DNA of 64,000 nucleotides from a virus. Below the pieces are notes generated by a model, which saw only the letters and a program-made list of their open reading frames with translations, made no database searches and was not told where the DNA came from. Of this stretch, positions 7,166 to 54,019 are shown one piece after another. The stretch's first letter is position 1. The number at the start of each line of letters is the position of its first letter. A program made the translations under genes and the position numbers. The DNA is taken from positions 16,645 to 80,644 of IMG/VR virus record IMGVR_UViG_3300045110_000102. The stretch is one strand, 5' to 3'.

Positions 7166-9568
7166 ATGGAACGCAAAGTAAATATTCAGGACTGGCAGAA
7201 GGTCACGGTCGAAGACTTTAACAACTTCGGTCTTTTCCCCCGCGCGTCCTTCGATCACATCGTCGTCGATACGCTGATCCCCGACATGGCCTTCACCGGC
7301 TTCGCTGTCGTGCAGACAGCACCGGCTGTGGTGACGGTCGGCAGCGGTCGGCTCTATCACGCTGGTCTTGTGTTCTACAACGACAACGAAGGCGGCACCT
7401 CGCTCGATCTGCTCAGCGTGCTGCCGGTGGTGACGCGGCGCTATGTCGGCGTGGTCGCATGGGGCCAAGAGATCGAGACGGACACCGAGCCGCGAACGTT
7501 CCTCACCGATCCGGTGACGCGCGCGACTGTGGCGCGTGTTGTCTCCACCGAGTCGCGGCGCTGGACGAACATCTCCACCGTGGTCGGCGCTGAAGGTCCT
7601 GACCCGCAGAAGCCAGCCATCGCATCGAATACGCTGGTGGTGGCGTGGATACTTCTCGACTCGACCGGCATCGTTGCGATCCAGATGGTTGAAGACAATC
7701 GCGCGCCGAACCTGCGCGATCTCGACAACCGCATGAACGAGAACGATGCATGGCGCATCCGCACGACGTCGCGCCTCGATACGCTGGCGACCGATCTCGC
7801 CGCGCTGGCTGCACGTCTCGCTGGCACCGCATCGATGCAACTGGCGCTGCGGCTTGCCGCAGACATCGCGCGCGTGAAGGAGGAGCTTAATCTCCCCGAC
7901 AGCTACACCTCATGGGGCGCGGATCACTTCCTGACCAACGACGAGTCCGACGTGCACGACGTGCCGCCGAACCCGGACTACATCGCCAAGGTCGAGGAGG
8001 GCATTCGCTTCCCGAACGCTGCAGAGCGCGACTCGCAGATGTCGCTGTTGAACCCGCTCGATCCGGCGGTGATCAATCAGGCGAACTTCGTGCTGCCGCT
8101 CTATCACGAGAAGACACGGCTCGAAGTGCTCGGCAACGACAGCGAGTTGTCGATCTCGCAGTATCAATTCCAAACCATCTCTTGGGAATTGTGCACGAAG
8201 ACCCGCACGCGCATCCGCTTTGGCACGCCGATGTATGTTTGCTACAACGGCTGCTGGTGGTTCGCGCCATCCGGTCAGGACTGGCAAACGTCAATCGGCA
8301 TGGGCGAATGGGCGAACGGCTTCGGCGGCTCGACCGGCATGACGCCGAACACCGATCTGATCTACGATCCGATCCGCAACATCCTGACGCGTGGCACCGA
8401 GACATTCCAAATCCTTGACGTGCAGGATGTCTCGACGCACACCGTGCTGCGCATCGCGCAGTTCTGGGTCGATGAGATCATCGACTCCTACTACTGGCGG
8501 CAGATCATCACCGTTGAAGGTCTCAGCGGTTCGGTGGTGGCGCAGTCGTTCCTGAACTCGCAGGGCGGCTGGCTGACGTCGGTGGAATTGTTCTTCACGC
8601 GCATCGCCACATCCGGCGACGTGCACGCGCTGATCGTCGAGTGCAACGACGTCGGCGCGCCGAACTATCAGAAGGTGATCGCACGCTCGACCATCGTGTC
8701 GGACCTGCTGCGCTCGCCACCGTTCGCGACGAAGATCGGATTCCTTCCGACCTATCTGGCGAAGGGCAAGCGCTACGCTGTCGTGCTGCAGACGCCCGGC
8801 AATCACTTCGTGTCGCTGGTGCACAACAACAAGTTCGCGCAGGGCTCGCTGTTCACATCGACGGACGGCGCGTGGGCCTCGGGCGACCTGACCAAGGACA
8901 TCGCACTGCGGCTGAACTTCGCGGAGTTCGAGTCCACCCGCTGCACCGTGCAACTGGCTGGCCTCGAATTGAATGGCGGCATCGCGGCCATCGATCTCAA
9001 CTTCGATTCGACGCGTCCGCCGGGCACCACGATCTCATTCGAGATTCAGCACAACGGCGTGTGGGTGCCGCTCGGCTACTACGACAGCAATCCGCTGGTC
9101 GCGTTGCCGCCGCTGCTGCCACTGCGCTGCATCCTTGTCGGCACCACCGATGAGATGCCGGGCATCGGCGTCGCTGCGAATTCGCGCTCGCTGACGTCGC
9201 GGCCTCGCAATGACTTCCGTCACATCTCGACGGTGCGGACGATGCCGAACCCGGTCAACACGGTCTACGTGGACTTCCGGCTCGACGCGTGGCGCGGTGA
9301 AGACAGTGCTGGCTACGAGTACCACACCTTCACGCCAGCGCTGTTGATCGGTGCGGGCTTCCAGAACGTGGTGCCGCCTGCAGTGATCGAGGATGAAGTC
9401 GCGCCGGACGATCCGACAGGATTGCGTCGTCGCTGCATCTGGGACCTTGCGTCGTTCGGTGGCACACCGATCACGGCTTACAAGATCAGATGCGAGGGCT
9501 GGTCGGACAACGCGCTCGCGCTGTTCCACGTTTCCGAGCGTGTCGATATCGGCATCAACCTCATGTGA
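7166..9568 (+). CDS. Large baseplate/tail protein (DUF4815-like)
   Basis: GAGGAG RBS, ATG 7166; AQSF...WLTSVELFF motif. Confidence 0.6.
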   Translation: MERKVNIQDWQKVTVEDFNNFGLFPRASFDHIVVDTLIPDMAFTGFAVVQTAPAVVTVGSGRLYHAGLVFYNDNEGGTSLDLLSVLPVVTRRYVGVVAWGQEIETDTEPRTFLTDPVTRATVARVVSTESRRWTNISTVVGAEGPDPQKPAIASNTLVVAWILLDSTGIVAIQMVEDNRAPNLRDLDNRMNENDAWRIRTTSRLDTLATDLAALAARLAGTASMQLALRLAADIARVKEELNLPDSYTSWGADHFLTNDESDVHDVPPNPDYIAKVEEGIRFPNAAERDSQMSLLNPLDPAVINQANFVLPLYHEKTRLEVLGNDSELSISQYQFQTISWELCTKTRTRIRFGTPMYVCYNGCWWFAPSGQDWQTSIGMGEWANGFGGSTGMTPNTDLIYDPIRNILTRGTETFQILDVQDVSTHTVLRIAQFWVDEIIDSYYWRQIITVEGLSGSVVAQSFLNSQGGWLTSVELFFTRIATSGDVHALIVECNDVGAPNYQKVIARSTIVSDLLRSPPFATKIGFLPTYLAKGKRYAVVLQTPGNHFVSLVHNNKFAQGSLFTSTDGAWASGDLTKDIALRLNFAEFESTRCTVQLAGLELNGGIAAIDLNFDSTRPPGTTISFEIQHNGVWVPLGYYDSNPLVALPPLLPLRCILVGTTDEMPGIGVAANSRSLTSRPRNDFRHISTVRTMPNPVNTVYVDFRLDAWRGEDSAGYEYHTFTPALLIGAGFQNVVPPAVIEDEVAPDDPTGLRRRCIWDLASFGGTPITAYKIRCEGWSDNALALFHVSERVDIGINLM

Positions 9569-10075: not shown

Positions 10076-11911
10076 ATGGCACTGAAGCGGCTCGATGAAG
10101 AGTTCGAACTGAAGCCCGGCACGCAGTTGCTTCCGTACATGAAGCGATTGCTGCCGTCGCTTGAGGCTCGCTTCCAAGACTTGGAAGAAGTGGACCGCAT
10201 GCTGACCAAGATCGGCGAGGACATTCGTGCGGCGGCATTGCTGCGCATGAATGACATCCTGATCCCGGCAACCGAAGACATCCTCGCGGTCACCAAGCTC
10301 GGCTTCCTGCTCGCTCCGATCTCGACACCGTACACGCTCGTGCTCGGCTACATGGCGATGTACGTTGACGAAGGCGTGCAGCGCGACACGTTCACGCCGT
10401 CGCCTTATCTGATCATCGAGCACGTCGATGCGCCAGACGATTACGCCATCGCGCGGCTGGTCAACTACGATCAGAAGACCGGCATTCTTGAAGTGAACAT
10501 CACGGCGATCCACGGCTCGCCCGGTCCGCATCCCTACATGGTGTCATCGACGCCGGGCATGGCGGATTCAGCGAAGCTCTACCACGACGCCATCACGCCG
10601 ATGCACGAAGTGGTGGTGTCTGACCACGAGGAGGTGGTCTTCCTGCACGCCGAGATCATGGCCGCAGCGCAAGCGCTGGCGGAGTCTGGTCTCGATGCTT
10701 ACGCGTTCATTCGACGCGACGGCACCGTGCCGTTCGAGGCGCTGCAGGTTGGTCTCGCGCCGCCGTCGAACGCGAACGACAACTACATTCCGACCAGCGG
10801 ATGGGTGCGCTCGCGCATCGTCGAGTACGTCAACACGGCGGTGAAGAAGACCGGCGATGTGATGACCGGTCCGCTCACGATCCCGGCGTATCCGACGCAA
10901 GACGCGCACGCTGCCAGCAAGAAGTATGTCGATGATGCGTTCGGTGCTGGCGGCACGATGCGCGGCGACCTGACGATCAACGACAGCTATCCTTCGCTGC
11001 TGATGAAGCCGACAGGCCCGCAGCAGGATCGATTGCTCGAAGGTCTCAACTATGACGGCGCGCGCCGGTGGGTGATGGCGCTCGGCGATGGCTCTGACGA
11101 CTTCGCGCTGTATCGCTACGGCGACGCGGGCAACTATCTCGGCACCGGGCTGCACATCCGGCGCAGCGATGGCGGCGTGACGCTCGGGCCGATCTCCACC
11201 GGCTATCTCTCGAACGTCGGCGGCATGAACATCGACGGCGATCTTTATCTCCATCGCGGCACCAGCGGCACCGGCGTGGTCTTCCTCAATCACACCGGCA
11301 GCGCGTATCACTATTGGGACGGCGCGACGCACACCTTCACCGGTGGCGGCGGCGCGTTCCACGGTGGCATGAACGTGCATCACCTGAACTGCTACAGCAT
11401 CAGCACGCAGGGACACTGGACGACGACGTGGGGAATGACGTCGCACGGGCCGATAGACATCAACGGCGCGCTGACCATCCGTGGCGACATGGTCTTGGAG
11501 AGTCCGAACGCGAACTACATTCGGTTCTGGGATGGCACATGGGGCAACATGTACATCCACCACAACGACGACAACATCGGCTTCCTCGGTCACGACGGCG
11601 GTTGGCGCGCGTACGTCAACAACTCCTCGCAGATGTGGCTCGGCGCGTACGGATGGATTCACGACTACGTCAACAACACCGCGAGCCATCATGCGTGGAC
11701 GGCAGCGAACCATCGCTACAATGAAGTGGTCTACAGGATTCGCTTCGCGCATCTCGGCGACGTGCAGCACTACTACAACCAATTGCAGGAGCCGTGGGGC
11801 GCAGGCGTGATCACCGGCATCACCGGTTGCTACTCGTCCTACTACGTGATCGGTCGCTATCGGCAATGCCACATGATGATCGCGGGCGGCTGGTACGCTG
11901 CAAGCTACTGA
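10076..11911 (+). CDS. Tail fibre / receptor-binding protein
   Basis: K.GD.MTG.L and HAASKKYVD fibre motifs; Gly/Trp/His-rich beta C-terminus. Confidence 0.8.
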   Translation: MALKRLDEEFELKPGTQLLPYMKRLLPSLEARFQDLEEVDRMLTKIGEDIRAAALLRMNDILIPATEDILAVTKLGFLLAPISTPYTLVLGYMAMYVDEGVQRDTFTPSPYLIIEHVDAPDDYAIARLVNYDQKTGILEVNITAIHGSPGPHPYMVSSTPGMADSAKLYHDAITPMHEVVVSDHEEVVFLHAEIMAAAQALAESGLDAYAFIRRDGTVPFEALQVGLAPPSNANDNYIPTSGWVRSRIVEYVNTAVKKTGDVMTGPLTIPAYPTQDAHAASKKYVDDAFGAGGTMRGDLTINDSYPSLLMKPTGPQQDRLLEGLNYDGARRWVMALGDGSDDFALYRYGDAGNYLGTGLHIRRSDGGVTLGPISTGYLSNVGGMNIDGDLYLHRGTSGTGVVFLNHTGSAYHYWDGATHTFTGGGGAFHGGMNVHHLNCYSISTQGHWTTTWGMTSHGPIDINGALTIRGDMVLESPNANYIRFWDGTWGNMYIHHNDDNIGFLGHDGGWRAYVNNSSQMWLGAYGWIHDYVNNTASHHAWTAANHRYNEVVYRIRFAHLGDVQHYYNQLQEPWGAGVITGITGCYSSYYVIGRYRQCHMMIAGGWYAASY

Positions 11912-28714: not shown

Positions 28715-28908
28715 TCGGTCGCTCCTTTGATGCGTTCAGTTGTGTAGATAGGGGAGAAGATTATCAGGCACCTTCTTCTTGCCGTGCCGGTGCATGAAGT
28801 TGGCGAACATGCGGCACTGCGCGTCGATGCGTTCTTCGATTGGAAGCCTGCGCGATTCCTTCAGCATCTCCATGAGCGCAGGCAGTTCTCTGATGGCGGC
28901 ATCTTCGC

Positions 28909-29235: not shown

Positions 29236-30278
29236 CGGCGTTTGCCTTTGTTCGGCTCTTGCTTCGGCTTGCGGTCGGGCGGGAAGATGTCCGCTTGGAC
29301 TTCGCCCTGCTGCTGCCCCGTGCCAGATGATCCGGCAGATTGTTCGCCATCCTTCGGATCGCCGCCGACAGCATCAGCGCTTCCGCCTTTGTCCGCACCG
29401 TCGTCGGCTCCAGCACGAGGCTGATCGCCCCGTCCTTCACCGACAGGTTCATCACCACTTCCTTTGACAACTTCATCTTTCACCTCTTCTTTGACGACGT
29501 CGGAATTGACTTCGCCTTCTATGATCGAGTTGCGAGCCGCTGCCTGCGTGGCAACGTGCTCGACGTCGAAGCCTCGATCTCCTGCCGCGCGAGCCGCCTT
29601 GGCGTCGCGAAGTTTCTGTGCGTAGGCCGCAACCTTGCTGATCGGCATATCGACCGCTATCGATCCGTCATCGAGTTCGTCCGGCGTGTAGACGCCGAGC
29701 AGCACTTCGCTGGCGAACAGTCGGCACCATTGCCGCACGGTCGAGTAAGCAAGCTGCACCTCGGGCACCGTCTCCCACAGTGGCGAGCCACCGTAGCCGC
29801 CACCATCCCTGCGCTTCGGTCGTGCGTCGAGCATCTCCTTCAGCGTCGGGCTGGTGTACTCGTGCGGCCTCTCTTCGCCCCTGAATAGGCCGGACACCTT
29901 GCAGCGGCGCTGATCGCCTTCGCCGAGTATCTCGTGCCGCAGCCGCGTCTTCAGCGGAGCGCGCGCGGTGATCACCGCATGCACAAGCTGCGCCTCGAAC
30001 GCGATCCGCTCTTCGCCCTTGTTCACTACCTGATAGGACTTCTCAGCGACGGCGAACGGGTCCATCTGCCAGCGCAGCGCGCGCGAGCAGATCGCGAGAC
30101 AGCCGCCGGGATTGCCGCGCAGATAGCCCGGCACTGCCGAGCCGGAGACCGCCATCAACTTGGCGAACTCCATCACCTGTCCCATGTTCTCCAGCGCGAT
30201 GCCGCCGATCTCGGCATTCACTGTGATCGGTGCAGCGATAGCACGATCAACACGCCTCTCGATTTCAGTCACGTCCAT
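29232..30278 (-). CDS. recT: RecT-like ssDNA annealing recombinase
   Basis: P.YLRGNPG.C, W.MDPF.VA..Y, W...P..QL.Y...R.W.R..LLGVY..DE; adjacent to RecE. Confidence 0.8.
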   Translation of the reverse strand: MDVTEIERRVDRAIAAPITVNAEIGGIALENMGQVMEFAKLMAVSGSAVPGYLRGNPGGCLAICSRALRWQMDPFAVAEKSYQVVNKGEERIAFEAQLVHAVITARAPLKTRLRHEILGEGDQRRCKVSGLFRGEERPHEYTSPTLKEMLDARPKRRDGGGYGGSPLWETVPEVQLAYSTVRQWCRLFASEVLLGVYTPDELDDGSIAVDMPISKVAAYAQKLRDAKAARAAGDRGFDVEHVATQAAARNSIIEGEVNSDVVKEEVKDEVVKGSGDEPVGEGRGDQPRAGADDGADKGGSADAVGGDPKDGEQSAGSSGTGQQQGEVQADIFPPDRKPKQEPNKGKRR

Positions 30279-31240: not shown

Positions 31241-31284
31241 CTTGGTTGCTCCTTTGGTGTCGTCATAAATTGAGTCGAACGGCG

Positions 31285-31649: not shown

Positions 31650-32092
31650 ATTGGACCGATGCCGCCGATGCGATGCTGGTCAAGCTGTGGGATAGCGGAG
31701 CCTCGCTCGGCTACGTGGCGGATGGATTGTGCCTCGCTGGCTACGTGGTGAGCCGCAACTCTGTCGCCGGTCGTAAGCACCGATTGACACAGAAGGGCGT
31801 GGTCTTCCGGCGCGTCGGTCCACCGATCAGGAGCAAGCCACTACGACAGCCTATCAACCAGCAACGGAGCAAACGAATGAACACCAAAGCAACTGACACT
31901 CCTGTCGAGCCGTTTGATCACAGTACTCACGAGGGCATCGAGTATCTGGAGAACATTGATGGATGCAAGGCCATCCTCGGCAAGCGCGGCGGGGCGTGGA
32001 TGTTGCCGATGGTGTGCGGACGACGGAGGACAAGCGGAGAGCCGTACTGCAACGAGCACCTGATGATCTACACCAACCAGCAAAGGAAATGA
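31646..32092 (+). CDS. gcrA: GcrA-like cell-cycle regulator
   Basis: WT...L.KLW..G.S...A...SRNSV.G..HRL; C-terminal C..CG..PYC..H. Confidence 0.8.
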   Translation: MNWTDAADAMLVKLWDSGASLGYVADGLCLAGYVVSRNSVAGRKHRLTQKGVVFRRVGPPIRSKPLRQPINQQRSKRMNTKATDTPVEPFDHSTHEGIEYLENIDGCKAILGKRGGAWMLPMVCGRRRTSGEPYCNEHLMIYTNQQRK

Positions 32093-34906: not shown

Positions 34907-34973
34907 ACGAAGCGATAAGGCAGTGCCCGACGTGTCGGGTGCTGCCTTGCAGCTTTGAGATAAAGGAGCAAGC

Positions 34974-36521
34974 ATGCTGCAGATTGTTGGATGGCTTCGC
35001 CAGAAGATCACCGCAGTCCTGTCCCGATACAAGCGCAAGACGATCCCACCGCCGCCAGTGCGAGCAACACCGAGGCCGCAACCAGAACCGAATTCAGAAG
35101 CCCCTGATGATCGCTTCGGCTACGGTCAGGAAGTGCCGCCCGGGCCGGAGCCTGAGCCGCCGCGCAAACGCGGACGCCCGGCAGTATCGGAAGAGATCAA
35201 GCTGCTTCGGAAGCGGCGTCTCAGTCACGACAAGTTCGTCACGCCACAAGGCGAGCTACCGCCGCCGGTCACGCGCGAGCCCAAGCCGCGCGTGGAGCGC
35301 GTCGAGTTGCCGCCGCTGCCCGAAGCTCCGCCGCCGAGGAAAACCTATGTGCGCGGCGTGCATCACGAAGACGCCGAGGATGTGCTGTACGACTCGACCG
35401 AGTTCTTCGGCATGTTCAACTTCAGAGACACGATCCTGCAGCAACTTGAACGCTACTTCGTCTACCTCGCGCGCATGAAGAAGTACGACAAGGATTCCTA
35501 CGGGCTCTATCGTCAGTACGGCGCAACGCTGCTGCCCTACATCGACACTGGCGCGCATGACCGCCAAGGCATGAGCGAGGACGACAAGAAGAATCCACCG
35601 GGTCCGCTGCCGCTTATGCCGGAGTGGTTCAACCGCATGCGCCCGACGTTCGGCTGCTTCGTGTATGGCGCTGATCCCGAGACCGAGAAGTGGGAGCTTG
35701 TCAAAGACGCGGAGAAGAAGGGCTTCACGCGGTGGGTGCCGAAGTTCATGTACATCACCAAGCACAAGAAGCCGCCGCCGACGCTGCAGATGAAGAGCGG
35801 CGGCGACATCTACTCGATGACCGTGTGGTGGGACCGACCGCATGATCCGACCAGCAAGCGCAAGTACGGCACGCCGACCGAGTTCGGAATGTTCGTCAGC
35901 AAGGACGGATCACAACTGATCGCGCTGCGCTCGCTGCGGACTCGCATCGTCAAGATATGGTCGAAGAAGCACAAGCAGAACGTTCGCTTCCCCGAGCGCG
36001 TGTGGGAGATACCCGACGAGTTCGAGTCGTGGGCGCGCAACAACGGCGAGGACGCGCAGCATTTTCTGGCGCGACTCTTCCTCACGTCGGTGGCGCGCAT
36101 GTCGAACGTGCAGCGCGGCGTCGTGCGTGTCGCCGCCAGCAAGGACAACATGACCGCAGTGTTCTCGGTCAATCACGAGAAGATGGGATACTTCTTTCAG
36201 GATCGCGACATCCACATCGGCGACACCGGCGCGCGCAAGCGCATCTTCCACATGGTCAAGCCGCACACGCGCAGGGACGGGGCCGAGGTGCCGCTGCACT
36301 TCCGTGGCGAGCGCGAGTTCACGTGGGCTGGCTACGACGTGCGCATCACCGTGCCCGGGTGGGATCACCCGAACTTCGACGAGTTCGACGTCGGCACCAT
36401 CGATGAGCACTGGCTTGATAAAAAGGAGTTGAAGGGGATGATGAACGAAGAAGAGCTTGGCCGCAGGCTGGCCGAGCGGATCAAGAAGGCGCAGCACGGG
36501 AGACACGATGGTCACCGATGA
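34974..36521 (+). CDS. Hypothetical protein (515 aa)
   Basis: AAAGGAGCAA RBS; strong codon bias. Confidence 0.7.
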   Translation: MLQIVGWLRQKITAVLSRYKRKTIPPPPVRATPRPQPEPNSEAPDDRFGYGQEVPPGPEPEPPRKRGRPAVSEEIKLLRKRRLSHDKFVTPQGELPPPVTREPKPRVERVELPPLPEAPPPRKTYVRGVHHEDAEDVLYDSTEFFGMFNFRDTILQQLERYFVYLARMKKYDKDSYGLYRQYGATLLPYIDTGAHDRQGMSEDDKKNPPGPLPLMPEWFNRMRPTFGCFVYGADPETEKWELVKDAEKKGFTRWVPKFMYITKHKKPPPTLQMKSGGDIYSMTVWWDRPHDPTSKRKYGTPTEFGMFVSKDGSQLIALRSLRTRIVKIWSKKHKQNVRFPERVWEIPDEFESWARNNGEDAQHFLARLFLTSVARMSNVQRGVVRVAASKDNMTAVFSVNHEKMGYFFQDRDIHIGDTGARKRIFHMVKPHTRRDGAEVPLHFRGEREFTWAGYDVRITVPGWDHPNFDEFDVGTIDEHWLDKKELKGMMNEEELGRRLAERIKKAQHGRHDGHR

Positions 36522-37885: not shown

Positions 37886-37946
37886 GGACTTGAAAGATCG
37901 GGAGACAAGCGGCTATTGTAAGATCGTCAAAGGAGCAACCACGACG

Positions 37947-39743: not shown

Positions 39744-40036
39744 TGAGCAAAGAGCGAGACATGAATCAACTGCGTGCGGTGTTGGAGGAGTTCGCGCGGC
39801 GCGAGCGCGAGCCGGACTATCCCGAGGCGCTGATCAATCTGATCGACGCAATGCGCGCCTACATCAAGATCGATGTCGCCATCGCTGACGAGCTATTGAG
39901 CGAAGGTCAGATCACGCGCACCGAGTACACCAAGGGGATGATCGAGACCAAGCAGTTGATGATGATCCTGCGCAAGTTCGAAGCGCACGGCATCGACCCA
40001 TCGCTGCACGGTACGATCAAGGAGCCGCGCCGATGA
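39740..40036 (+). CDS. Hypothetical protein
   Basis: Coupled between primase and helicase. Confidence 0.55.
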   Translation: MMSKERDMNQLRAVLEEFARREREPDYPEALINLIDAMRAYIKIDVAIADELLSEGQITRTEYTKGMIETKQLMMILRKFEAHGIDPSLHGTIKEPRR

Positions 40037-41592
40037 TGCTCCCGCTCGAAGATGTAGCACCAGCGAGTATCCTGCGGGATGATCAGGAGAACGCACTGCA
40101 GACGCTGCGCGAGGCGGTCGGTCGCCGCGAGCACCGCATCTGCATGCAGGCACCGACCGGCTGGGGCAAGACCGTGTTCGCTGCTGCACTGGTGAACGCG
40201 GCGCACCAGCGCAACAAGAAGGTGATGTTCACGGTGCCAGCGATCTCACTGATCGACCAGACCGTCGGCATGTTCGCGAAGCAAGGCATCCTCGAAGTCG
40301 GCGTGATCCAAGCCAATCACCACATGACGAACTGGGATATGCCGATCCAAGTCTGCAGCGTGCAGACGTTGATGAAGCGCAAGGCGATGCCGAGCGTTGA
40401 CGTCGTGCTGATCGACGAGGTGCACATCTGGTTCAATGCTTACGAGAAGTGGCTCGGCACCGGCAAGGAAGGCGACACGGACCGCGTGCCAGAGTGGCGC
40501 GGCATCCCGGTGATCGGGCTCTCGGCAACACCGTGGAGCAAAGGGCTCGGCACGTGGTTCAGTCACTTCCACAAGGCAGCGACGATCCGCGAGATGATCG
40601 AGGCTGGCCATCTGTCGAACTTCAAAGTCTATGCGCCATCGCATCCGGACCTGTCGAACGTTCGCACCACCGGCGGCGACTATCAGATCGATGAACTGTC
40701 CGAAGCGATGCAGGAAGGCAGGCTCGTTGCCGACGCGGTTGATACGTGGCTGAAGCTCGGTGAAGGCAGGCCGACGCTTTGCTATGCGGTGGACCGCGCG
40801 CACGCGATGAAGCTCAAGCTGCAGTTCGAAGCGGCTGGTGTGCCGTGCGGATATCAGGATCACATGACATCGGATTCTGATCGAGCGTGGCTGCGCAAAG
40901 ACTTCCACAGCGGCAAGCTCAAGGTGGTGTGCAACGTCGAGACGTTGACCACCGGCATCGATTGGGATGTGCGATGCATCGTGCTGTGCCGACCGACGCG
41001 CAGCGACATGCTGTTCACGCAGATCATCGGACGCGGACTGCGCAACGCGCCGGGCAAGGATCACTGCTTGATCCTCGATCACTCCGACAATCACAACCGG
41101 CTCGGCTTCGTCACTGACATCGACGAGAGCTACGTCGGACTGCACGTCGGTCAGACGCCGCGCCACGACAATCGCACCAAGGAGATCAGACTGCCGAAGG
41201 AGTGCCAGCAGTGCGGATATCTGAAGATGCCGAAGATGTCGCGCTGCCCGGCGTGCGGGTTCGTTGCGCAGGTGCTGAGCAACGTCGAGCCCGATGCTGG
41301 AGAGCTTCGCGAGTTGCAGCCGAAGCCACCGAAGCCGAAGGCGGAGATCGTTACCGTCGAGCAGAAGGGCGTGTTCTACGCCGAGCTTAAGGGCTACGCG
41401 ATCAAGAAGGGTTACAAGAACGGCTGGGCCTATCACAAATATCGCGAGCGCTTCGGTGTTGCGCCAGCGGGTGTGATCGACAAGGTGCGACCGATCATGC
41501 CGACGCTCAGCACATTGAACTGGATCAAGCACATTCAGATTGCATTCGCTAAGTCGAAGACGCGAACGTGGGACGGCGCGCGAGGCGGGTGA
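40033..41592 (+). CDS. Superfamily 2 DEAD/DEAH helicase with Zn ribbon
   Basis: PTGWGKT, DEVH, SATP, QIIGRGLR, C..C..C..C. Confidence 0.93.
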   Translation: MMLPLEDVAPASILRDDQENALQTLREAVGRREHRICMQAPTGWGKTVFAAALVNAAHQRNKKVMFTVPAISLIDQTVGMFAKQGILEVGVIQANHHMTNWDMPIQVCSVQTLMKRKAMPSVDVVLIDEVHIWFNAYEKWLGTGKEGDTDRVPEWRGIPVIGLSATPWSKGLGTWFSHFHKAATIREMIEAGHLSNFKVYAPSHPDLSNVRTTGGDYQIDELSEAMQEGRLVADAVDTWLKLGEGRPTLCYAVDRAHAMKLKLQFEAAGVPCGYQDHMTSDSDRAWLRKDFHSGKLKVVCNVETLTTGIDWDVRCIVLCRPTRSDMLFTQIIGRGLRNAPGKDHCLILDHSDNHNRLGFVTDIDESYVGLHVGQTPRHDNRTKEIRLPKECQQCGYLKMPKMSRCPACGFVAQVLSNVEPDAGELRELQPKPPKPKAEIVTVEQKGVFYAELKGYAIKKGYKNGWAYHKYRERFGVAPAGVIDKVRPIMPTLSTLNWIKHIQIAFAKSKTRTWDGARGG

Positions 41593-42844: not shown

Positions 42845-43095
42845 GTCATCACACCATCGAGTGGATCGACATGGAGAGGAAGCCGAAGGTCGCGCCGAAC
42901 CCGGCGTATCCTGATGGCATCGACATCGACCTGTCGCGCGGTGCGGAGAAGACGTGCACCGTCGAGCTACCGTATCCGGCGAAGCGCATCGGCTACTACG
43001 TTGTCGCGTGCACCCAGTGCGACTTGCGCACCGGCATCACGACCGCCGGTCGCCCCGATGATCCGCGTTCAGTCAAACTGGAGTGCAAGCGATGA
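42841..43095 (+). CDS. Small Cys-containing hypothetical protein
   Basis: Coupled ORF; C..C...TTAGR.DDP. Confidence 0.6.
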   Translation: MSHHTIEWIDMERKPKVAPNPAYPDGIDIDLSRGAEKTCTVELPYPAKRIGYYVVACTQCDLRTGITTAGRPDDPRSVKLECKR

Positions 43096-43400
43096 CGCAC
43101 ACGAAGGACCTGCTCGCCGACGAACTGATGAAGCTCGGCCTGATCAACATGAGTCTGCAGGCGCGCGGCGGCTACTACCACGACTTCCTGTCACCGCTGG
43201 CGACGCCGGAGATTCAACTCGTCAACGATCTGGCAGAGGCCGCGCGCAAGCGCAACGACATCCGAGACCCGATCATGGAGTTGCGCCAGCGCGTGATCAA
43301 TGGCGACTTCGATGCCAACCGCGAGGAGAGCGACGCGTGGGCGGCGAGCGAGGAAGGGCAGGATGCATTCCGCAGGCTGATCAGGGACAAGCCGTCGTGA
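43092..43400 (+). CDS. Hypothetical protein
   Basis: ATGA coupling. Confidence 0.6.
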   Translation: MTHTKDLLADELMKLGLINMSLQARGGYYHDFLSPLATPEIQLVNDLAEAARKRNDIRDPIMELRQRVINGDFDANREESDAWAASEEGQDAFRRLIRDKPS

Positions 43401-43657
43401 GCGTGATCGACCGGGTGTCGCTGTGGGATCAGATCGCGGAGGTGAAGCGCGAGATTGATCAGCGCAAGCGCGTATACGTTAGGATGATTGCGCAGGAGAA
43501 GATGACCAAGGCAGAAGCAGAGCGACGCATGACGGTGATGTGCGCTGTGCTGGCGACGCTGGAGCGATTACGCGGGCTGGGCAACAAGATCAACGACGAA
43601 GGAGAGCCCAATGACTCACGAGGAGGAATTAAAAGCACTGCAGAAGACGGTCCTTGA
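43397..43657 (+). CDS. Hypothetical phage protein
   Basis: QIAEVKREI..RKRVY motif. Confidence 0.6.
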   Translation: MSVIDRVSLWDQIAEVKREIDQRKRVYVRMIAQEKMTKAEAERRMTVMCAVLATLERLRGLGNKINDEGEPNDSRGGIKSTAEDGP

Positions 43658-43856
43658 ATTCGAAGAGGTGGCGACACGAGTGGAGGAGAGGTTCACAACG
43701 GCCTACGATCCGACCGTTGAGAGCAAGCGGGTCAACGTCTCGATGGGATGGTGGCTGGTGATCAAGCGCCTCGGGCTGGCGATATGGATCAGCGACACGA
43801 AGCCGGAGATCACATCCGGCGACCTGTTGTCGATCAGCATCAAGAAGGTCCCTTGA
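43611..43856 (+). CDS. Hypothetical protein
   Basis: AAGGAG RBS. Confidence 0.55.
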   Translation: MTHEEELKALQKTVLEFEEVATRVEERFTTAYDPTVESKRVNVSMGWWLVIKRLGLAIWISDTKPEITSGDLLSISIKKVP

Positions 43857-43878
43857 GATCGCAGCGGTGATCGCATAG

Positions 43879-43982
43879 GGTCCGGGCCTTCCAGCGGGCG
43901 AGACTTGGGTTTGAAGTTTGCTCCTTTGACCAAGACTCCGAGCGGACCGGAGGGGGCGGCGGCGCAAGCTGCTGCCCCTTCT
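43879..43982 (+). ncRNA. Candidate anti-RBS small RNA with 3' terminator hairpin
   Basis: Nested stems display GTTTGCTCCTTTGAC; GCAA-tetraloop hairpin with G-U pairs valid only on the + strand. Confidence 0.55.
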
Positions 43983-44073
43983 GCGCGACTCCTACGTAGG
44001 GAACGTCATTGCAACCGGGGAGTTGAGGTCCCGGCGACATCCGTCGCCACCTTGATCAAGGAAGGAAACGCAA

Positions 44074-44274
44074 ATGACGAACCAGAATCTGAAGAGCGCC
44101 GCCGAACAGGTGAAGGCATCGCTCGACAAGATCACGCAGGCCAAGGACAACCCGCAGCAGATGCAGCAGGCGATCAACGACGCGAAGCAGAAGGTCGATC
44201 AGCTTGTGCAGCAGGCGGACCAAGGTTCACAGCAGGCTGGCAGCGGCGGACAGAGCCAAGGCCAGCAGCGCTAA
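44074..44274 (+). CDS. Small Gln-rich hydrophilic protein
   Basis: AAGGA RBS; stand-alone gene with its own terminator. Confidence 0.7.
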   Translation: MTNQNLKSAAEQVKASLDKITQAKDNPQQMQQAINDAKQKVDQLVQQADQGSQQAGSGGQSQGQQR

Positions 44275-44320
44275 TAAAAAAAGGCCCCCGACCACCACGC
44301 GGTGATCGGGGGCTTTTCAG
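44275..44320. terminator. Bidirectional intrinsic terminator
   Basis: A tract, GCCCCCGA..TCGGGGGC stem, T tract, between convergent genes. Confidence 0.85.
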
Positions 44321-44322
44321 TT

Positions 44323-44529
44323 TCAGTGATGCACGAGCGACATCACGTGTTCAGGTGTCAGATTATATCTCCTCATCACGAGCAGCAGCATCTCGACCGC
44401 AGCGGGGATCGAGTGCTTCTCAGCGATCCATTTCCGAACGGTGGTCTCGTTGACGTGGAAGAACGTCGCGGAGTCGATCTGCGTCAGCTTGAGATGAGAG
44501 ATCGCGTCGCGATACTCATCGCCAGTCAT
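44323..44529 (-). CDS. XRE-type HTH protein
   Basis: L.LTQ..SA.FFHV...TVRKW.....IP. Confidence 0.75.
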   Translation of the reverse strand: MTGDEYRDAISHLKLTQIDSATFFHVNETTVRKWIAEKHSIPAAVEMLLLVMRRYNLTPEHVMSLVHH

Positions 44530-44543
44530 CGGTGCATTCCTTT

Positions 44544-44840
44544 TCAGTAGCGGCGTTGTGGATAGTAGGGCGCATGCGGTGGCGGCGGCGGGTCCGGGTA
44601 TCGATTGACGGACACGTTGCTGCCGTAGATCGGATCGCGATATGGATCGACCGGAACGCATTGCACGTTGGTCTTCATCTGCAGGCGCGCACCATTGATC
44701 GTCGCACTGGGCGGGACTTGGTATAGCGTCTGCGCGGCGTACTCGCAGGCCTCGCGTGAAGGCCAGTCGGTGTGGTTCGAATCGACAGACACGCTGCCGG
44801 TGTTCGACACCACGATCATCGCGTACATCAATCGCCACAT
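44544..44840 (-). CDS. Hypothetical exported protein
   Basis: S.EACE.A...CVP motif. Confidence 0.55.
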   Translation of the reverse strand: MWRLMYAMIVVSNTGSVSVDSNHTDWPSREACEYAAQTLYQVPPSATINGARLQMKTNVQCVPVDPYRDPIYGSNVSVNRYPDPPPPPHAPYYPQRRY

Positions 44841-45112
44841 GGTCGTGCTCCCTTCCTTCGCTCCATGCTGACGATCTCCACCTTGCCGAACGCACCGAAC
44901 ACCGTCTTGACCACGCGGTTCATTGCCTCGTGGTCGCTGGTGTCGTCGTTCGTCAGGCTGTAGGCAGCGCCGGAGATCATGTCGGCGGCGACTGCCATCA
45001 ACACGACCGCGACGTCTTCCTCGTCGTCGAGTAGCTGGGTGACCAGCATGACCGACTTGCGTGCTCGCTCGACTGCGGTCTTCGCGAGGTCGTTGACAAT
45101 TGCTTGGCTCAT
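44828..45112 (-). CDS. Hypothetical protein
   Basis: AAGGAGCAA RBS. Confidence 0.6.
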   Translation of the reverse strand: MSQAIVNDLAKTAVERARKSVMLVTQLLDDEEDVAVVLMAVAADMISGAAYSLTNDDTSDHEAMNRVVKTVFGAFGKVEIVSMERRKGARPCGD

Positions 45113-45342: not shown

Positions 45343-45893
45343 CGGGCGACCCACGGTCGGCGCGCCTTCGGCTTCGGGTTGGTCTTCGCGCGGGGCTTCT
45401 TCGTCGGCTGATCGAGCAGCCACTGCTGCCCGGCATCGAGGCCAAGCTCGTACAGCTTCGGCGCGGTGTGACGCGCGAAGAAGAAGTCGAGCACGCCATA
45501 GACGCCGTTGCGCAACGCCGCGCGCCGCACGTACGCGGTGGCGAACGGCACGCCGAAGTAGCCATAGACCTGACCGTTGTCTTCGATGGTCGGATCGACG
45601 ACGACACCGTCGGCATCGACCAGCCACGCGTGATCGATGCCGACGCCGTGGATGTAGGCCTTGCCCTCGCAGTAGGTGAGGTCGGGATTCCACAGCGCGG
45701 TGTGCAGCGCGTTCATGAAGCAGCCGTGTCGCTCACCGCGCGGTCCATCGTACGTGTGAGGACCGATGCGATACGCGCGCGCGTGCGCCAGCATGAAGTC
45801 GTTGTAGACATTCGGCCCGAAGGCCTCCCGTCGGGTCTCGAAGTCGGCGCGCATGCCAACTTCAATCTCCTCCGGCGTGAGGGTGTTCATCAT
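45339..45893 (-). CDS. Hypothetical protein (transglutaminase-like C/H/D motif)
   Basis: CFMNA...YCEG...HAW.VD.....DPT...YFGVPF. Confidence 0.65.
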   Translation of the reverse strand: MMNTLTPEEIEVGMRADFETRREAFGPNVYNDFMLAHARAYRIGPHTYDGPRGERHGCFMNALHTALWNPDLTYCEGKAYIHGVGIDHAWLVDADGVVVDPTIEDNGQVYGYFGVPFATAYVRRAALRNGVYGVLDFFFARHTAPKLYELGLDAGQQWLLDQPTKKPRAKTNPKPKARRPWVAR

Positions 45894-46172
45894 TGTCTTT
45901 GCTCCTTTGATTGTTGATGTAGTGAAACAGTGCGACGCGGTCGTTGTCGTCGAGGCGCACGTCGCTGTAGGTCAGGGCTTCGATTCCTCGGCGCTGGAAT
46001 AGTCTGGCCAGCGCTGCCAGTGTTCTCTCGTCCATTGCATCTCCGTGTCTGGTTGATAGGTTCAGAACGCCTGTCGCATCATGAGCAATGCGACCACAAG
46101 CAGGACAGCAGAGAAGACGGCGACCGCCGCCATCGCTGTCACCTCTTCGGTCCACATGTCCGGGTCCCCCAT

Positions 46173-46699: not shown

Positions 46700-46880
46700 G
46701 TTGGCTCCTTTGATTGTCAAACAGCCCGCTCGACGAGCGAGCAGGTGAAGTGTAGCAAACGCACTTGCGCCAAATCGCGAGTCGAGCCGATGCGCATGCA
46801 GCAAACCACTGCAGCACAAGGGTCGAGCATCGCGATTTGGAAAACTTGACTCCGATAAATACAGGGCGAGACGCGCGTGA

Positions 46881-47446: not shown

Positions 47447-47466
47447 CTGGTTTGCTCCTTCTGGGT

Positions 47467-47954: not shown

Positions 47955-48147
47955 AGTCGGTGGCTCCTTTGGCCAATTGAAAACGATGCGGCTTGGTCTT
48001 CACCAAGTGCATGTAGACATCGCGGGCAGTCACCTCGCGGCGTTCGATGTCGTGTCCGCCGCACTGCGTACAATTCCAGCCGCCGAAGCCGTCGTCACCG
48101 CAGGTGTTGCAGTGATAGGCCTCGGCGCGCTCTTGCTCAGTCATCAT
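47947..48147 (-). CDS. Small Zn-ribbon protein
   Basis: CNTC...CTQC. Confidence 0.5.
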   Translation of the reverse strand: MMTEQERAEAYHCNTCGDDGFGGWNCTQCGGHDIERREVTARDVYMHLVKTKPHRFQLAKGATDYD

Positions 48148-48460: not shown

Positions 48461-48650
48461 CGCTTTGCTCCTTTGTTGGGAAAGATGAATGTCTCGTCGG
48501 ACAGTTGCCGCTCCATCTCGCGGCGCTCGATCTCGGTGGCTACTGGATCGGGATGAAGCCGACGCAGATGTTGCGTCGGAGTCTCGTCGAACGATGGCGA
48601 TGGCTCGCCGTTCAACATGGCGCGCATGGCGCATTGGATGCAGATCATCA

Positions 48651-49136: not shown

Positions 49137-50005
49137 AGTTGCTCCTTTGATTGCTGCTTCGCTGCAGCGTGGGTGTAGGCTTGCTGGGTTGAGTAGTCGT
49201 CGCGTCGTGGCAGAGACGGGATCGCCTCGGCCAGTTCTCTTGCGTGCTTCGGATGCCGATCACCATCGAGCCACTGCATCACCGCGTTCGCTGCGGCGTT
49301 GCCCTGCTCGACCATGCGCTGATCCTTCACGTCCTCGGTGAGCAGCGCGGTGCGCACATCGAGAATGCAGCGCGCGACGGCGCGGCCTTCATCGACCTGC
49401 TTCATCGCGCGCTTGGTTGAGCCGACCACGAGCGCTTCACCGAAGCGCAGGCAGAGGCCTGCGTCCCAGTGCTTCTCGCTGTCGCGCATCAGCAGCCCGA
49501 GCACGCCGATGAAAGCCAGCGCGCCGGTGGTGGTGCCGACCGTCAGCTTGACGCCGCGCTCGTGCATGCGACCGATGGCATGCTTCGAGATGTAGGCAAG
49601 GTTCATGTCAGCCATCACCGCGCAACTGCCGGGGCGTCGGCAGATGATGCGATGCTGTGAGATGTTGACGCCGGTCTCGGTCACGCCTTCGAGCGGGTGA
49701 TCGCCAGCGCTAAGCGTTGCGAAGTCGAGCCAGACCGAGCGCGTCCCTCCTGCATAGTCGAGCATGAAGTGCGCGCAGTGTTCTGGCGTGACGTGGTCGT
49801 TGAGATGCTTGACGATCTTACGCACCGCAGCGACGCGCTTGATCGGGTTGCCGAGCTTGTGGATGCGCTCGAACGCGTCGAGCACAGCGTCGGTCCAATC
49901 CTTCGCGCCGGGTGCGAGTGCGGTCGCATGCATCGCTTCGCGTCGCCGTAGCTCGCGGAAGTATTGCTCCGCGAAGATACGGCTCGCCGTTGGCAGCGGG
50001 GCCAT
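49133..50005 (-). CDS. Hypothetical protein
   Basis: 290-aa ORF; SKHA.GR..ER motif. Confidence 0.6.
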   Translation of the reverse strand: MAPLPTASRIFAEQYFRELRRREAMHATALAPGAKDWTDAVLDAFERIHKLGNPIKRVAAVRKIVKHLNDHVTPEHCAHFMLDYAGGTRSVWLDFATLSAGDHPLEGVTETGVNISQHRIICRRPGSCAVMADMNLAYISKHAIGRMHERGVKLTVGTTTGALAFIGVLGLLMRDSEKHWDAGLCLRFGEALVVGSTKRAMKQVDEGRAVARCILDVRTALLTEDVKDQRMVEQGNAAANAVMQWLDGDRHPKHARELAEAIPSLPRRDDYSTQQAYTHAAAKQQSKEQL

Positions 50006-51062: not shown

Positions 51063-51089
51063 TGTCGTTGCTCCTCTGAGCGTTGAATT

Positions 51090-51908: not shown

Positions 51909-51934
51909 GGTCGTTGCTCCTTTGAGCGTTGAGA

Positions 51935-53564: not shown

Positions 53565-53648
53565 TGAGATGCTCCTTTGAGCGTTTGATATTGAAGACAC
53601 CGGATGGTGCTTCGTGCCGCGCACCTTGCGATGCGCGGAGGCGAAGCA

Positions 53649-53972: not shown

Positions 53973-54019
53973 GGTTTGCTCCTTTGCGCGTTGGGTCAGT
54001 GTGGCGAGGTGAGGTGAAC

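What the first reader, a model, noticed from the sequence alone, without database searches (positions are those of the whole stretch)
43879..43982. Candidate phage sRNA antisense to the shared RBS of about 20 early/middle genes (an RNA-based temporal switch)
Seen: the 3' end of the replication operon folds into an outer stem GGTCCG/CGGACC (43879/43948) and an inner stem GAGaCTTGG/CCAAGaCTC whose apex carries GTTTGCTCCTTTGAC (43916-43930). A GC hairpin with a GCAA loop follows, and its G-U pairs work only on the + strand. The apex is the exact reverse complement of the extended RBS TCAAAGGAGCAA(A/C): 11-13 nt perfect matches upstream of starts at 45893, 49136, 51908, 53972, 48460 and 37947, and near matches upstream of 31240, 30278, 34974, 37691, 45112, 47446, 51062, 53564 and 46699. 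On the minus strand this copy has no start codon after it, so it is not an RBS itself. Late structural genes use AGGAGA-type RBSs (3648, 7166, 12676, 58367) and would escape. Inference: a 3'UTR-derived RNA made in the middle phase silences many early mRNAs through one seed, conceptually like P1 c4 or P4 CI RNA but multi-target.
Basis: partly seen in the sequence, partly recalled or inferred. Interest (0 to 1): 0.88.

Follow-up and report, generated by a model that had tools for sequence, protein, structure and literature searches.

The report
Phage hairpin RNA mirroring its ribosome-site tag
An uncultured 80-kb soil phage puts one private, extended ribosome-binding tag before about 20 non-structural genes and keeps a single mirror copy of it at the tip of a conserved RNA hairpin. 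In related phages tag and mirror copy change together, so one small RNA probably controls translation of the whole gene set, though no transcript has been seen.

Summary
TCAAAGGAGCAA occurs 12 times with at most 1 mismatch, against 0.11 expected. All copies but one sit 5-9 nt before an ATG of a non-structural gene. The exception (43916-43930, read on the + strand as the complement) tops a stem-loop that is followed by a GC hairpin with a GCAA loop.

New here: the same two-hairpin module occurs in at least 13 related IMG/VR phage lineages. A one-hairpin version occurs in 3 more, whose tag is AGGAGTCTGA. In each phage the mirror copy matches that phage's own tag (classes GGAGCAAAC, CAACC, CAAGC, CACGAC, GTCTGA).

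The second hairpin is more stable on the mirror-copy strand in 12 of 13 lineages, with 29 G.U pairs against 5. A TTGnnn-N16-18-TAnnnT promoter-like site lies upstream in 6 lineages. The module is inverted between the same neighbouring genes in some relatives, so it behaves as its own unit and not strictly as the replication operon's 3'UTR.

Best reading (about 0.6): a roughly 100-nt antisense RNA against the shared RBS. Transcription, repression and timing are all inferred.

Cluster K mycobacteriophage Anaya shows the same layout: its one reverse start-associated sequence (SAS) is a hairpin loop.

This scan has already reported the same layout on other DNA, in at least 8 followed-up genomes.

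The parts
43853..43881 (+). Promoter-like site TTGAGA-N17-TAGGGT. The -35 overlaps the stop codon of the upstream 81-aa gene.
   Evidence: Sequence. The strict pattern TTGNNN-N16-18-TANNNT occurs only 6 times on the + strand of the 64-kb window. It lies 25-45 nt upstream of only 0.2% of positions. Equivalent sites occur at the same place in L027, L106 and L011 and in L085 and L096. Inferred, not shown to fire.
43879..43948 (+). Stem-loop 1. Outer stem 43879-84/43943-48, inner stem 43900-08/43930-38, weak apical stem UUGAAG/CUUUGA with the 7-nt loop UUUGCUC.
   Evidence: A stem-loop with the mirror motif at its tip is present in all 13 GGAGCA-type lineages, with unrelated stem sequences.
43916..43930 (+). 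Apex: GTTTGCTCCTTTGAC, the exact complement of the extended RBS tag. The predicted seed is the loop UUUGCUC.
   Evidence: P(unpaired) is 0.91-0.96 for UUUGCUC. The 17-mer is identical in L027 and L028 at the syntenic spot although the flanks have diverged.
43949..43982 (+). Stem-loop 2: a 15-16 bp GC hairpin with a GCAA (GNRA) loop and 4 G.U pairs. Probable 3' end or terminator-like hairpin; no U-tract follows.
   Evidence: It is strand-asymmetric in 12 of 13 lineages, with 29 G.U pairs against 5. The terminator scan did not call it.
45899..45910 (-). Tagged RBS (13-nt match) of the 184-aa gene starting at 45893.
49139..49150 (-). Tagged RBS (12-nt match) of the gene starting at 49136.
51914..51925 (-). 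Tagged RBS (12-nt match) of the gene starting at 51908.
53976..53987 (-). Tagged RBS (13-nt match) of the gene starting at 53972.
48465..48476 (-). Tagged RBS (12-nt match) of the gene starting at 48460.
37927..37938 (+). Tagged RBS (13-nt match) of the gene starting at 37947, in the same + operon as the module.
53569..53580 (-). Tagged RBS (11-nt match) of the AAA+ ATPase gene starting at 53564.
51068..51079 (-). Tagged RBS (1 mismatch) of the gene starting at 51062.
46702..46713 (-). Tagged RBS (10-nt match) of the gene starting at 46699.
47449..47465 (-). Tagged RBS (11-nt match) of the DUF6874 gene starting at 47446.
31246..31257 (-). Tagged RBS (11-nt match) of the gene starting at 31240.
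28719..28730 (-). Tagged RBS (1 mismatch) of the gene starting at 28714.
34958..34974 (+). Tagged RBS (10-nt match) of the 515-aa gene starting at 34974.
31859..31875 (+). Tag-like RBS (GGAGCAAAC) of the gene starting at 31877.
47958..47974 (-). Tag-like RBS (CAAAGGAGCC) of the gene starting at 47954.

Best explanation
The stretch 43853-43985 (+ strand) is a small non-coding RNA gene of about 100 nt. It has a weak sigma-70-like promoter embedded in the end of the upstream gene, and transcripts may also arrive by read-through from the helicase operon.

The RNA folds into two hairpins. Hairpin 1 presents the complement of the phage's private, extended ribosome-binding tag (TCAAAGGAGCAAA/C) at its tip. 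Hairpin 2 is a stable GC stem with a GNRA loop that forms the 3' end.

Proposed action: the open 7-nt loop UUUGCUC first contacts GAGCAAA in a target. Pairing then spreads to 10-13 bp (predicted -19 to -25 kcal/mol) across the Shine-Dalgarno sequence of about 15-20 non-structural genes on both strands. This competes with the 7-bp pairing to 16S rRNA, so it lowers their translation and perhaps their stability. Structural genes with AGGAGA-type sites match over only 5-6 nt and escape.

Shown: the motif statistics, the exact complementarity, conservation of the module, co-variation of apex and tag, strand asymmetry of hairpin 2, and predicted accessibility of the apex.

Inferred: that the RNA is made, that it pairs in the cell, that the effect is repression, and when it acts.
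For: 1. Enrichment and position. The tag occurs 12 times against 0.11 expected. Every copy but one lies 5-9 nt before an ATG of a gene in the 28.7-54 kb non-structural region.

2. Conservation. The exact 17-mer plus both hairpins are retained at the syntenic spot in L027 and L028, whose helicase is only about 60% identical, while the flanks have diverged.

3. Census. The module (mirror motif at the tip of stem-loop 1, then a GC hairpin, no start codon on the other strand) was found in WIN, L027/28, L079, L106/80, L011, L090, L085, L131, L094, L093, L096, L126 and L100. A one-hairpin form, with the mirror motif as the loop, occurs in L118, L122 and L113.

4. Co-variation.
- Each orphan scores best against its own phage's RBS weight matrix (WIN and L027, which share one motif, count as one class).
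- L100 has RBS GGAGCACGAC and orphan GGGAGCACGACC.
- The AGGAGTCTGA clade has CAGACUCC in the loop.
- The orphan of L122 (genome G004) reads GGAGTCTAA, a variant also seen at three of its RBSs.

5. Strand.
- Hairpin 2 is more stable on the mirror-motif strand in 12 of 13 lineages, by about 7 kcal/mol on average, with 29 G.U pairs against 5.
- GNRA or UUCG loops occur on that strand.
- U-rich tails follow on that strand in L096, L085, L090 and L118.
- If hairpin 2 ends transcripts on that strand, hairpin 1 is necessarily part of them.

6. Promoter-like site. The strict TTGNNN-N16-18-TANNNT pattern lies 28-40 nt upstream of the motif in WIN, L027, L106 and L011, against a background of 0.0-0.6% of positions. 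It is also present in L085 and L096.

7. Accessibility. The mirror core is less paired than the RNA average in 12 of 13 lineages.

8. Independent parallel. The single reverse SAS of Cluster K phage Anaya is the 10-nt loop of a conserved hairpin on the coding strand.
Against: - No RNA evidence of any kind.
- In the window hairpin 2 has no U-tract, and the terminator scan did not call it.
- The promoter match is weak: -10 TAGGGT, which the scan tool did not call.
- Stem-loop 1 folds about as well, or better, on the other strand in L027, L079 and L106, so it does not discriminate the strand by itself.
- In L094 the mirror core is predicted to be mostly paired.
- One RNA would have to titrate about 20 sites on abundant mRNAs, which needs high expression.
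- Half of the apex (CUUUGA) is paired in the predicted fold.
- The lineages are related, so counts such as 12 of 13 are not fully independent.
- An orphan that is a target-like site would track the consensus just as well.
Confidence: 0.6

Rival explanations
1. Same RNA strand, but acting in cis. The mirror motif in the 3' end of a long operon transcript pairs with tagged RBSs on that same mRNA, or on read-through transcripts entering the next operon. This would tune translation or create RNase III sites, as the icaR 3'UTR does with its own Shine-Dalgarno sequence.
For: The module directly follows a co-oriented stop codon in WIN, L027, L079, L106, L011 and L090. In the L085/L090/L093/L094/L126/L131 group it lies between the replication operon and the next + gene. 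The + operon of the window carries tagged RBSs itself, at 31877, 34974, 37691 and 37947.
Against: Most tagged genes in the window (13 of about 19) are on the opposite strand, in a different operon. In L100 the mirror strand is opposite to both flanking genes. Promoter-like sites suggest a separate short transcript.
Confidence: 0.15
2. The functional copy is the sense strand. An RBS-like tag without a start codon, displayed in a hairpin loop, serves as a decoy or extra binding site for whatever recognises the tag (30S subunits, or a phage or host protein such as a translational repressor).
For: The sense copy is conserved and co-varies just as well, by definition. Stem-loop 1 is more stable on the sense strand in L027, L079 and L106. 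In L079, L106, L011 and L100 the sense strand is co-directional with a neighbouring operon. The conserved flanks of the tag (TC..CAA) do not pair with 16S rRNA, so some other reader of the tag must exist (established 16S 3' end; same argument as in PMC3203893).
Against: Hairpin 2 is built for the other strand, with 29 G.U pairs against 5, more stable in 12 of 13 lineages. In those orientations hairpin 2 precedes the sense tag and would end transcripts before it. In L090, L118 and the L085-L131 group no co-directional transcription unit would carry the sense copy. No RNA-binding protein family was found among 30 neighbouring proteins. That is a weak point, since most of them match no family at all.
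Confidence: 0.1
3. An ordinary terminator region with a left-over RBS. The orphan would be a decayed gene start or a recombination boundary sequence kept by gene conversion among tags, with no function of its own.
For: Neighbouring small genes come and go: the 81-aa and 66-aa genes flanking the module are absent from relatives. L096 and L094 have a short ORF after the sense tag.
Against: The orphan stays free of a start codon and at the tip of a hairpin across lineages whose helicases are only 45-75% identical, and across four or five tag classes. In L027 the sense reading hits a stop at once. A dead RBS would not keep 17 of 17 identity while the flanks diverge.
Confidence: 0.07
4. A DNA-level site. 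The tag and its orphan would be operators for a DNA-binding protein, and orientation would not matter.
For: The module is found in both orientations relative to its neighbours.
Against: The tag is fixed 5-9 nt before start codons and always in the sense of the gene. That is a translation signature and not an operator signature. The G.U asymmetry is an RNA property.
Confidence: 0.04

Closest known systems
Start-associated sequences (SAS) of Cluster K mycobacteriophages (Pope et al. 2011, PMC3203893). Their role is still called unknown in PMC11373665 (2024) and PMC12699233 (2025).
   Same: Both are a private asymmetric tag of 12-13 nt built around the Shine-Dalgarno core. Both lie 3-9 nt before ATG starts of 11-19 non-structural genes, and in both the conserved positions go beyond what pairs with 16S rRNA. 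[quoted passage not shown] I found that in Anaya this copy is the 10-nt loop of a conserved hairpin on the coding strand, in the 385-nt gp96-gp97 gap. The region is conserved in 138 records and the stem shows compensatory changes.
   Different: The tag sequence is different (TCAAAGGAGCAA against GGGATAGGAGCCC). The host group is different (probably a proteobacterium, against Mycobacterium). There are no ESAS inverted repeats here. No published work assigns an antisense RNA to SAS. This is therefore an analogue, not a member.
P1/P7 c4 RNA and P4 CI RNA (phage immunity antisense RNAs); P22 sar
   Same: Each is a small phage RNA whose exposed loop sequences pair with the ribosome-binding region of phage mRNA to block translation. 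c4 specificity differs between P1 and P7, much as the tag and mirror pairs differ between relatives here.
   Different: c4 and CI act on one or two sites in their own operon and are cut out of a precursor. Here one seed matches about 20 dispersed start sites. There is no Rfam match to those families. No immunity role has been shown.
Bacterial multi-target anti-Shine-Dalgarno sRNAs with C-rich loops (RsaE/RoxS and other Staphylococcus Rsa RNAs), cited from my own knowledge
   Same: An unpaired pyrimidine-rich loop pairs with the SD of many mRNAs. Architecture is a hairpin followed by a terminator hairpin.
   Different: Those RNAs use a 4-6 nt generic C-rich motif against host SDs. Here the match extends to 12-13 nt, includes phage-specific flanks, and co-evolves with a private tag.
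icaR 3'UTR anti-SD interaction in Staphylococcus aureus, cited from my own knowledge
   Same: An anti-SD motif in a 3'UTR pairs with an SD to repress translation.
   Different: icaR acts in cis on a single mRNA. See the first rival explanation.

Membership tests
SAS-type private RBS tag (Cluster K definition, PMC3203893) | Asymmetric conserved sequence of 12-13 nt containing the SD core, in many copies per genome | tested here: met
   12 copies with at most 1 mismatch against 0.11 expected. About 19 copies with looser matching.
SAS-type private RBS tag (Cluster K definition, PMC3203893) | Located 3-9 nt upstream of start codons, mostly ATG, in the sense of the gene | tested here: met
   Spacer of 5-9 nt to ATG at all copies but the orphan.
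SAS-type private RBS tag (Cluster K definition, PMC3203893) | Restricted to non-structural genes | tested here: met
   All copies lie at 28.7-54 kb. There are none at 1-24 kb or 56-64 kb, which hold the large + strand genes read as structural. There are none in the other 16.6 kb of the record.
SAS-type private RBS tag (Cluster K definition, PMC3203893) | Consensus GGGATAGGAGCCC | tested here: not met
   The tag here is TCAAAGGAGCAA(A/C). It is analogous, not homologous.
SAS-type private RBS tag (Cluster K definition, PMC3203893) | A single reverse-oriented copy not linked to a gene start | tested here: met
   43916-43930. The Anaya counterpart was checked.
P1 c4 / P4 CI antisense RNA families | Match to the curated covariance models | tested here: not met
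   No Rfam family reaches its gathering score in the whole window. At E up to 1 on 43700-44350 there are only sub-threshold BjrC68 and NsiR1 hits on terminator-like hairpins.
P1 c4 / P4 CI antisense RNA families | Targets lie in the RNA's own operon upstream of the controlled gene; processing from a precursor | tested here: inconclusive
   Some targets are in the same + operon, but most are in the opposite operon. Processing cannot be tested without RNA.
Intrinsic (Rho-independent) terminator | GC-rich stem followed directly by a U-tract | tested here: not met
   In the window hairpin 2 is followed by GCGCGAC and is not called by the scan. The feature is met in relatives L096, L085, L090 and L118.
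Trans-acting base-pairing sRNA (general) | Own promoter and defined 3' end giving a discrete short transcript | not testable with these tools
   Only a promoter-like site and a 3' hairpin are available. No RNA run is listed.
Trans-acting base-pairing sRNA (general) | Accessible seed complementary to targets, conserved and co-varying with them | tested here: met

The most novel reading that the evidence does not exclude
Private RBS tags with a matching 'master' mirror RNA may be a general, convergently evolved phage control system. It would be present in these proteobacterial soil phages and in Cluster K mycobacteriophages.

Its rapid diversification among close relatives (CAAAC, CAACC, CAAGC, CACGAC, GTCTGA, each with its own mirror) may reflect specificity. 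The RNA of a resident or first-arriving phage would silence the tagged genes of an incoming phage of the same tag class but not of another class. That would be an RNA-based exclusion or heteroimmunity code like P1/P7 c4, but genome-wide. It would also act as the phage's own early-to-late translational switch.
Probability: 0.15. Interest if true: 0.92.

Novelty: new variant of a known kind. Interest (0 to 1): 0.8.

Why it matters
Start-associated sequences have been an unexplained feature of phage genomes since 2011. The original authors asked whether an RNA or a protein reads them.

Here the tag, its single mirror copy in a hairpin loop, and their co-variation across several tag classes point to an RNA reader. 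The same layout in Cluster K mycobacteriophages makes this testable, because those phages are cultured, genetically tractable and already have RNA-seq data. Loop mutants and compensatory tag mutants would give a direct test.

If true, a phage can switch a whole set of about 20 dispersed genes at the level of translation with one 100-nt RNA. The tag and mirror pair would then be a portable, orthogonal handle for synthetic control of gene sets.

Tried and rejected
- **GenBank phages, nucleotide search of 43000-45000:** no match. The helicase protein is under 40% identical to any cultured phage.
- **Rfam:** nothing at gathering score; only sub-threshold terminator-like hits locally.
- **Exact 15-mer scan of IMG/VR:** 62 hits, by my rough estimate about the number expected by chance for a collection of that size, with no flank similarity. 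Two (L027, L028) proved to be true relatives.
- **Decayed minus-strand gene start:** rejected. There is no start codon, no conserved ORF (L027 hits a stop at once), and the 17-mer is kept while the flanks diverge.
- **First look for an orphan in the AGGAGTCTGA clade (at most 1 mismatch):** gave only true RBSs and one in-gene hit. The orphans were found later as hairpin loops.
- **MAFFT alignment of the modules (A3):** too poor for column-wise pair counts on stem-loop 1, so I used per-sequence folds instead. No covariance model was built.
- **Pfam on 30 neighbouring proteins:** no RNA-binding family. Found only a helicase, a primase, an AAA+ ATPase and DUF6874.
- **Bacterial genomes:** only two MAG contigs, from Casimicrobiaceae and Bradyrhizobium bins. 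The host is not settled.
- **Sequencing runs:** no RNA holder listed.
- **Laying four soil DNA runs:** contigs only. One variant strain has 5 differences in 2 kb, none in 43853-43985. This has no statistical power.
- The loci concerned were then read by coordinates only.
- **Not done:** the metagenome-contig scan was not used.

Full report
**What the window is.** The window is bases 16645-80644 of an 80.6-kb IMG/VR virus record, 95% complete by CheckV and 61.5% G+C. It was found only in soil metagenomes. No cultured phage is close: there is no nucleotide match, and the helicase is under 40% identical.

The gene map is:
- structural genes on the + strand at 1-24 kb and 56-64 kb;
- a - block at 24-31 kb;
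- a + replication block at 31.4-43.9 kb, with a primase at 38.6 kb and an SF2 helicase at 40033-41592;
- a - block running from 54.6 kb down to 44.3 kb.

The finding lies where the + and - blocks converge.

**The observation.** All elements are at the stated coordinates. The GC hairpin 43949-82 has a GCAA loop and four G.U pairs on +. Its energy is -30.5 on + against -17.1 kcal/mol on -.

TCAAAGGAGCAA with at most 1 mismatch occurs 12 times against 0.11 expected, and nowhere else in the record. Eleven copies lie 5-9 nt before an ATG in the sense of a gene. The twelfth (43918-29, - strand) has no start codon within 20 nt.

Six have contiguous matches of 12-13 nt to the apex and nine have 8-11 nt. 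The four late genes with AGGAGA-type sites match over only 5-6 nt. Predicted duplex energies with the apex are -19 to -25 kcal/mol for tagged starts.

**Relatives.** A helicase alignment found 56 related IMG/VR loci, and two more came from a 15-mer scan. L027 and L028 have a helicase about 60% identical. They carry the identical 17-mer AGTTTGCTCCTTTGACC at the syntenic place, again at the tip of a stem-loop and followed by a GC hairpin, although the surrounding sequence differs. Their apical stem differs from the window's on the 5' side only (UCGGAG against UUGAAG) and still pairs with CUUUGA through wobble pairs on that strand.

A descriptor search looked for the mirror core, then a GC hairpin within 50 nt, with no start codon plus ORF on the other strand. 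Together with inspection, it gave the same module in 13 lineages: WIN, L027/28, L079, L106/80, L011, L090, L085, L131, L094 (=L132), L093, L096, L126 and L100. The stems of hairpin 1 are unrelated in sequence between lineages, but the mirror motif is always at the tip.

**Tags differ between relatives and the mirror copy follows.** The shared RBS is not the same in all relatives:
- (C)AAAGGAGCAA(A/C) in WIN, L027 and L079;
- CAAGGAGCAAA in L106;
- AGGAGCAACC in L011;
- GGAGCAAGC in the L085/L090/L093/L094/L096/L126/L131 group;
- GGAGCACGAC in L100 (at least 11 genes);
- AGGAGTCTGA in L113, L117, L118 and L122.

Scored against weight matrices built from each phage's true RBSs, each orphan fits its own phage best. 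WIN and L027 share one motif. With five classes, a full match has a chance of 1 in 120.

L100's orphan reads GGGAGCACGACC.

In the AGGAGTCTGA clade the orphan is the loop of a single GC hairpin. In L118 the loop is AGCAGACUCC and the tail is GUUUUAAGG. L122 and L113 have the equivalent. All three are co-directional with the helicase. The orphan of L122 (genome G004) has the TAA variant that three of its own RBSs also carry.

By itself, though, it does not say which strand matters.

**Which strand.** Three lines point to the strand that carries the mirror motif.

(a) Hairpin 2 is more stable on that strand in 12 of 13 lineages, by about 7 kcal/mol on average. It carries 29 G.U pairs there against 5 on the other strand. 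The loops are GCAA (WIN, L079, L106, L011) or UUCG (L093) on that strand.

(b) Where a U-rich tail exists, it follows the hairpin on that strand (L096, L085, L090, L118). If hairpin 2 ends RNAs on that strand, hairpin 1 with the mirror motif is by necessity in their 3' part.

(c) A strict TTGNNN-N16-18-TANNNT site lies 28-40 nt upstream of the motif in WIN (TTGAGA-N17-TAGGGT, 43853-81), L027, L106 and L011. Such a site precedes only 0.0-0.6% of positions in these loci. L085 and L096 have one as well, and L079, L090, L093, L094 and L100 have near-matches.

Hairpin 1 alone does not discriminate, because it folds about equally on both strands.

**Position is not fixed to the replication operon.** In WIN and L027 the module follows the helicase operon. 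In L079, L106 and L011 the whole module is inverted between the same two neighbours and follows the last gene (HTH-like by my reading of its sequence; no Pfam match) of the opposite operon. L011's hairpin 2 overlaps the end of the convergent gene.

In the L085-L131 group the module sits between the replication block and the next + gene. In L100 its mirror strand is opposite to both flanking genes. In the window it is flanked by two small genes (81 aa and 66 aa) that relatives lack. The module thus behaves as a self-contained unit.

**Accessibility.** In partition-function folds of the predicted RNAs, the 8-nt mirror core is less paired than the RNA average in 12 of 13 lineages. In the window UUUGCUC is 0.91-0.96 unpaired. 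The 3' half of the apex (CUUUGA) is in a weak stem with two wobble pairs, so pairing would start in the loop and spread.

**Mechanism proposed.** A roughly 100-nt RNA (about 43887-43985, +) pairs through its loop with the tag on about 15-20 start regions. It covers the Shine-Dalgarno sequence over 10-13 bp, which outcompetes the 7-bp AAAGGAG pairing with a CCUCCUUU-type 16S 3' end. That 16S comparison rests on established knowledge; the host is not identified. The likely outcome is lower translation, perhaps with cleavage of the duplex.

The steps shown and the steps inferred are listed under Best explanation. I put this at about 0.6. A cis-acting 3'UTR version gets 0.15, a sense-strand decoy or protein site 0.1, a relic 0.07 and a DNA site 0.04.

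**Comparison with what is known.** The tag fits the definition of the start-associated sequences (SAS) of Cluster K mycobacteriophages in every respect but sequence (PMC3203893). Their function is still described as unknown (PMC11373665, PMC12699233).

[quoted passage not shown] I checked Anaya. It has 15 forward copies and one reverse copy. The reverse copy lies in the 385-nt gp96-gp97 gap among + strand genes. On the + strand it is the 10-nt loop CCUCCUAUCC of a hairpin, fold z -4.8.

The region is conserved in 138 Cluster K records. A 7-phage alignment supports the stem with compensatory changes. In Adephagia, late transcription is reported to start near the right genome end (PMC11373665), so a late-made anti-SAS RNA is conceivable there. 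I did not test this.

P1 c4, P4 CI and P22 sar work alike but act on one or two sites, and no Rfam model matches. A 2025 review of phage sRNAs lists no multi-target anti-RBS RNA (PMC12197685).

**Earlier notes of this scan.** A word search showed that the scan has already reported the same layout on other DNA, in at least 8 followed-up genomes, with the same closest-known family. These are AI notes and not independent evidence. I reached the Cluster K result from the paper and the sequence before reading them. Notes on this genome added a consensus promoter at about 54.6-55.1 kb and a palindrome TCCTACGTAGG directly after hairpin 2 at 43990-44000 (sequence).

**Limits.**
- No RNA data exist.
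- Laid DNA contigs gave no useful variation.
- The lineages are related, so counts are not independent.
- Column-wise covariation statistics for hairpin 1 were not obtained, because the alignment was too poor.

**Verdict.** It is corrected on biogenesis and left open on timing. It is a new variant of a known kind (antisense control of translation initiation) and offers a testable answer to the SAS puzzle.

Noticed in passing
L176 (Mycobacterium phage Anaya JF704106) 29850-29905, i.e. record about 59850-59905: The single reverse-oriented SAS of this Cluster K1 phage is the 10-nt apical loop (CCUCCUAUCC) of a conserved hairpin on the coding strand, in the 385-nt gp96-gp97 gap. A terminator-like hairpin lies about 10 nt upstream (the whole element begins about 60 nt upstream). 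The region is conserved in 138 Cluster K records, and 9 of 49 pairs show compensatory changes.
   Followed up: partly
Related loci L011, L079, L090, L100, L106, L113, L117, L118, L122 and others: Relatives of this phage each use a different private RBS tag: GGAGCAAAC, GGAGCAACC, GGAGCAAGC, GGAGCACGAC, GGAGCATCA and AGGAGTCTGA. The tag diversifies between lineages but is homogenised within a genome.
   Followed up: partly
L113 about 7835-7850, L122 about 7685-7700, L118 about 10250-10265: A conserved box GAAGGTATGAAA lies 15-25 nt upstream of the anti-tag hairpin in all three genomes of the AGGAGTCTGA clade that I read. It may be a -10 region or a processing site.
   Followed up: no
window 43990-44003: The palindrome TCCTACGTAGGGA, followed by ACGTC, lies 8 nt after hairpin 2. 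It may be an operator, perhaps for the 66-aa gene at 44074.
   Followed up: no
window 43611-43856 and 44074-44274: Two small genes (81 aa and a 66-aa Q-rich coiled-coil-like protein) flank the module and have no counterpart in L011, L027 or L028. They look like local insertions. A bidirectional terminator follows at 44284-44313.
   Followed up: partly
L132 and L133: The only bacterial-genome hits for the helicase are contigs binned into a Casimicrobiaceae MAG and a Bradyrhizobium MAG. The Casimicrobiaceae contig looks the same as the viral contig L094 (same length, coordinates and flanking sequence). Hairpin 2 gives a sub-threshold Rfam hit to the terminator part of the Bradyrhizobiaceae sRNA BjrC68. 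The host hints conflict (beta- against alphaproteobacteria).
   Followed up: no
L096 7757-7800 and L094 10361-10400: In these two relatives the sense strand of the orphan tag is followed by an ATG and a short ORF (about 18 codons read by eye in L094, under 40 codons in L096). This is probably chance, but a micro-ORF cannot be excluded.
   Followed up: no
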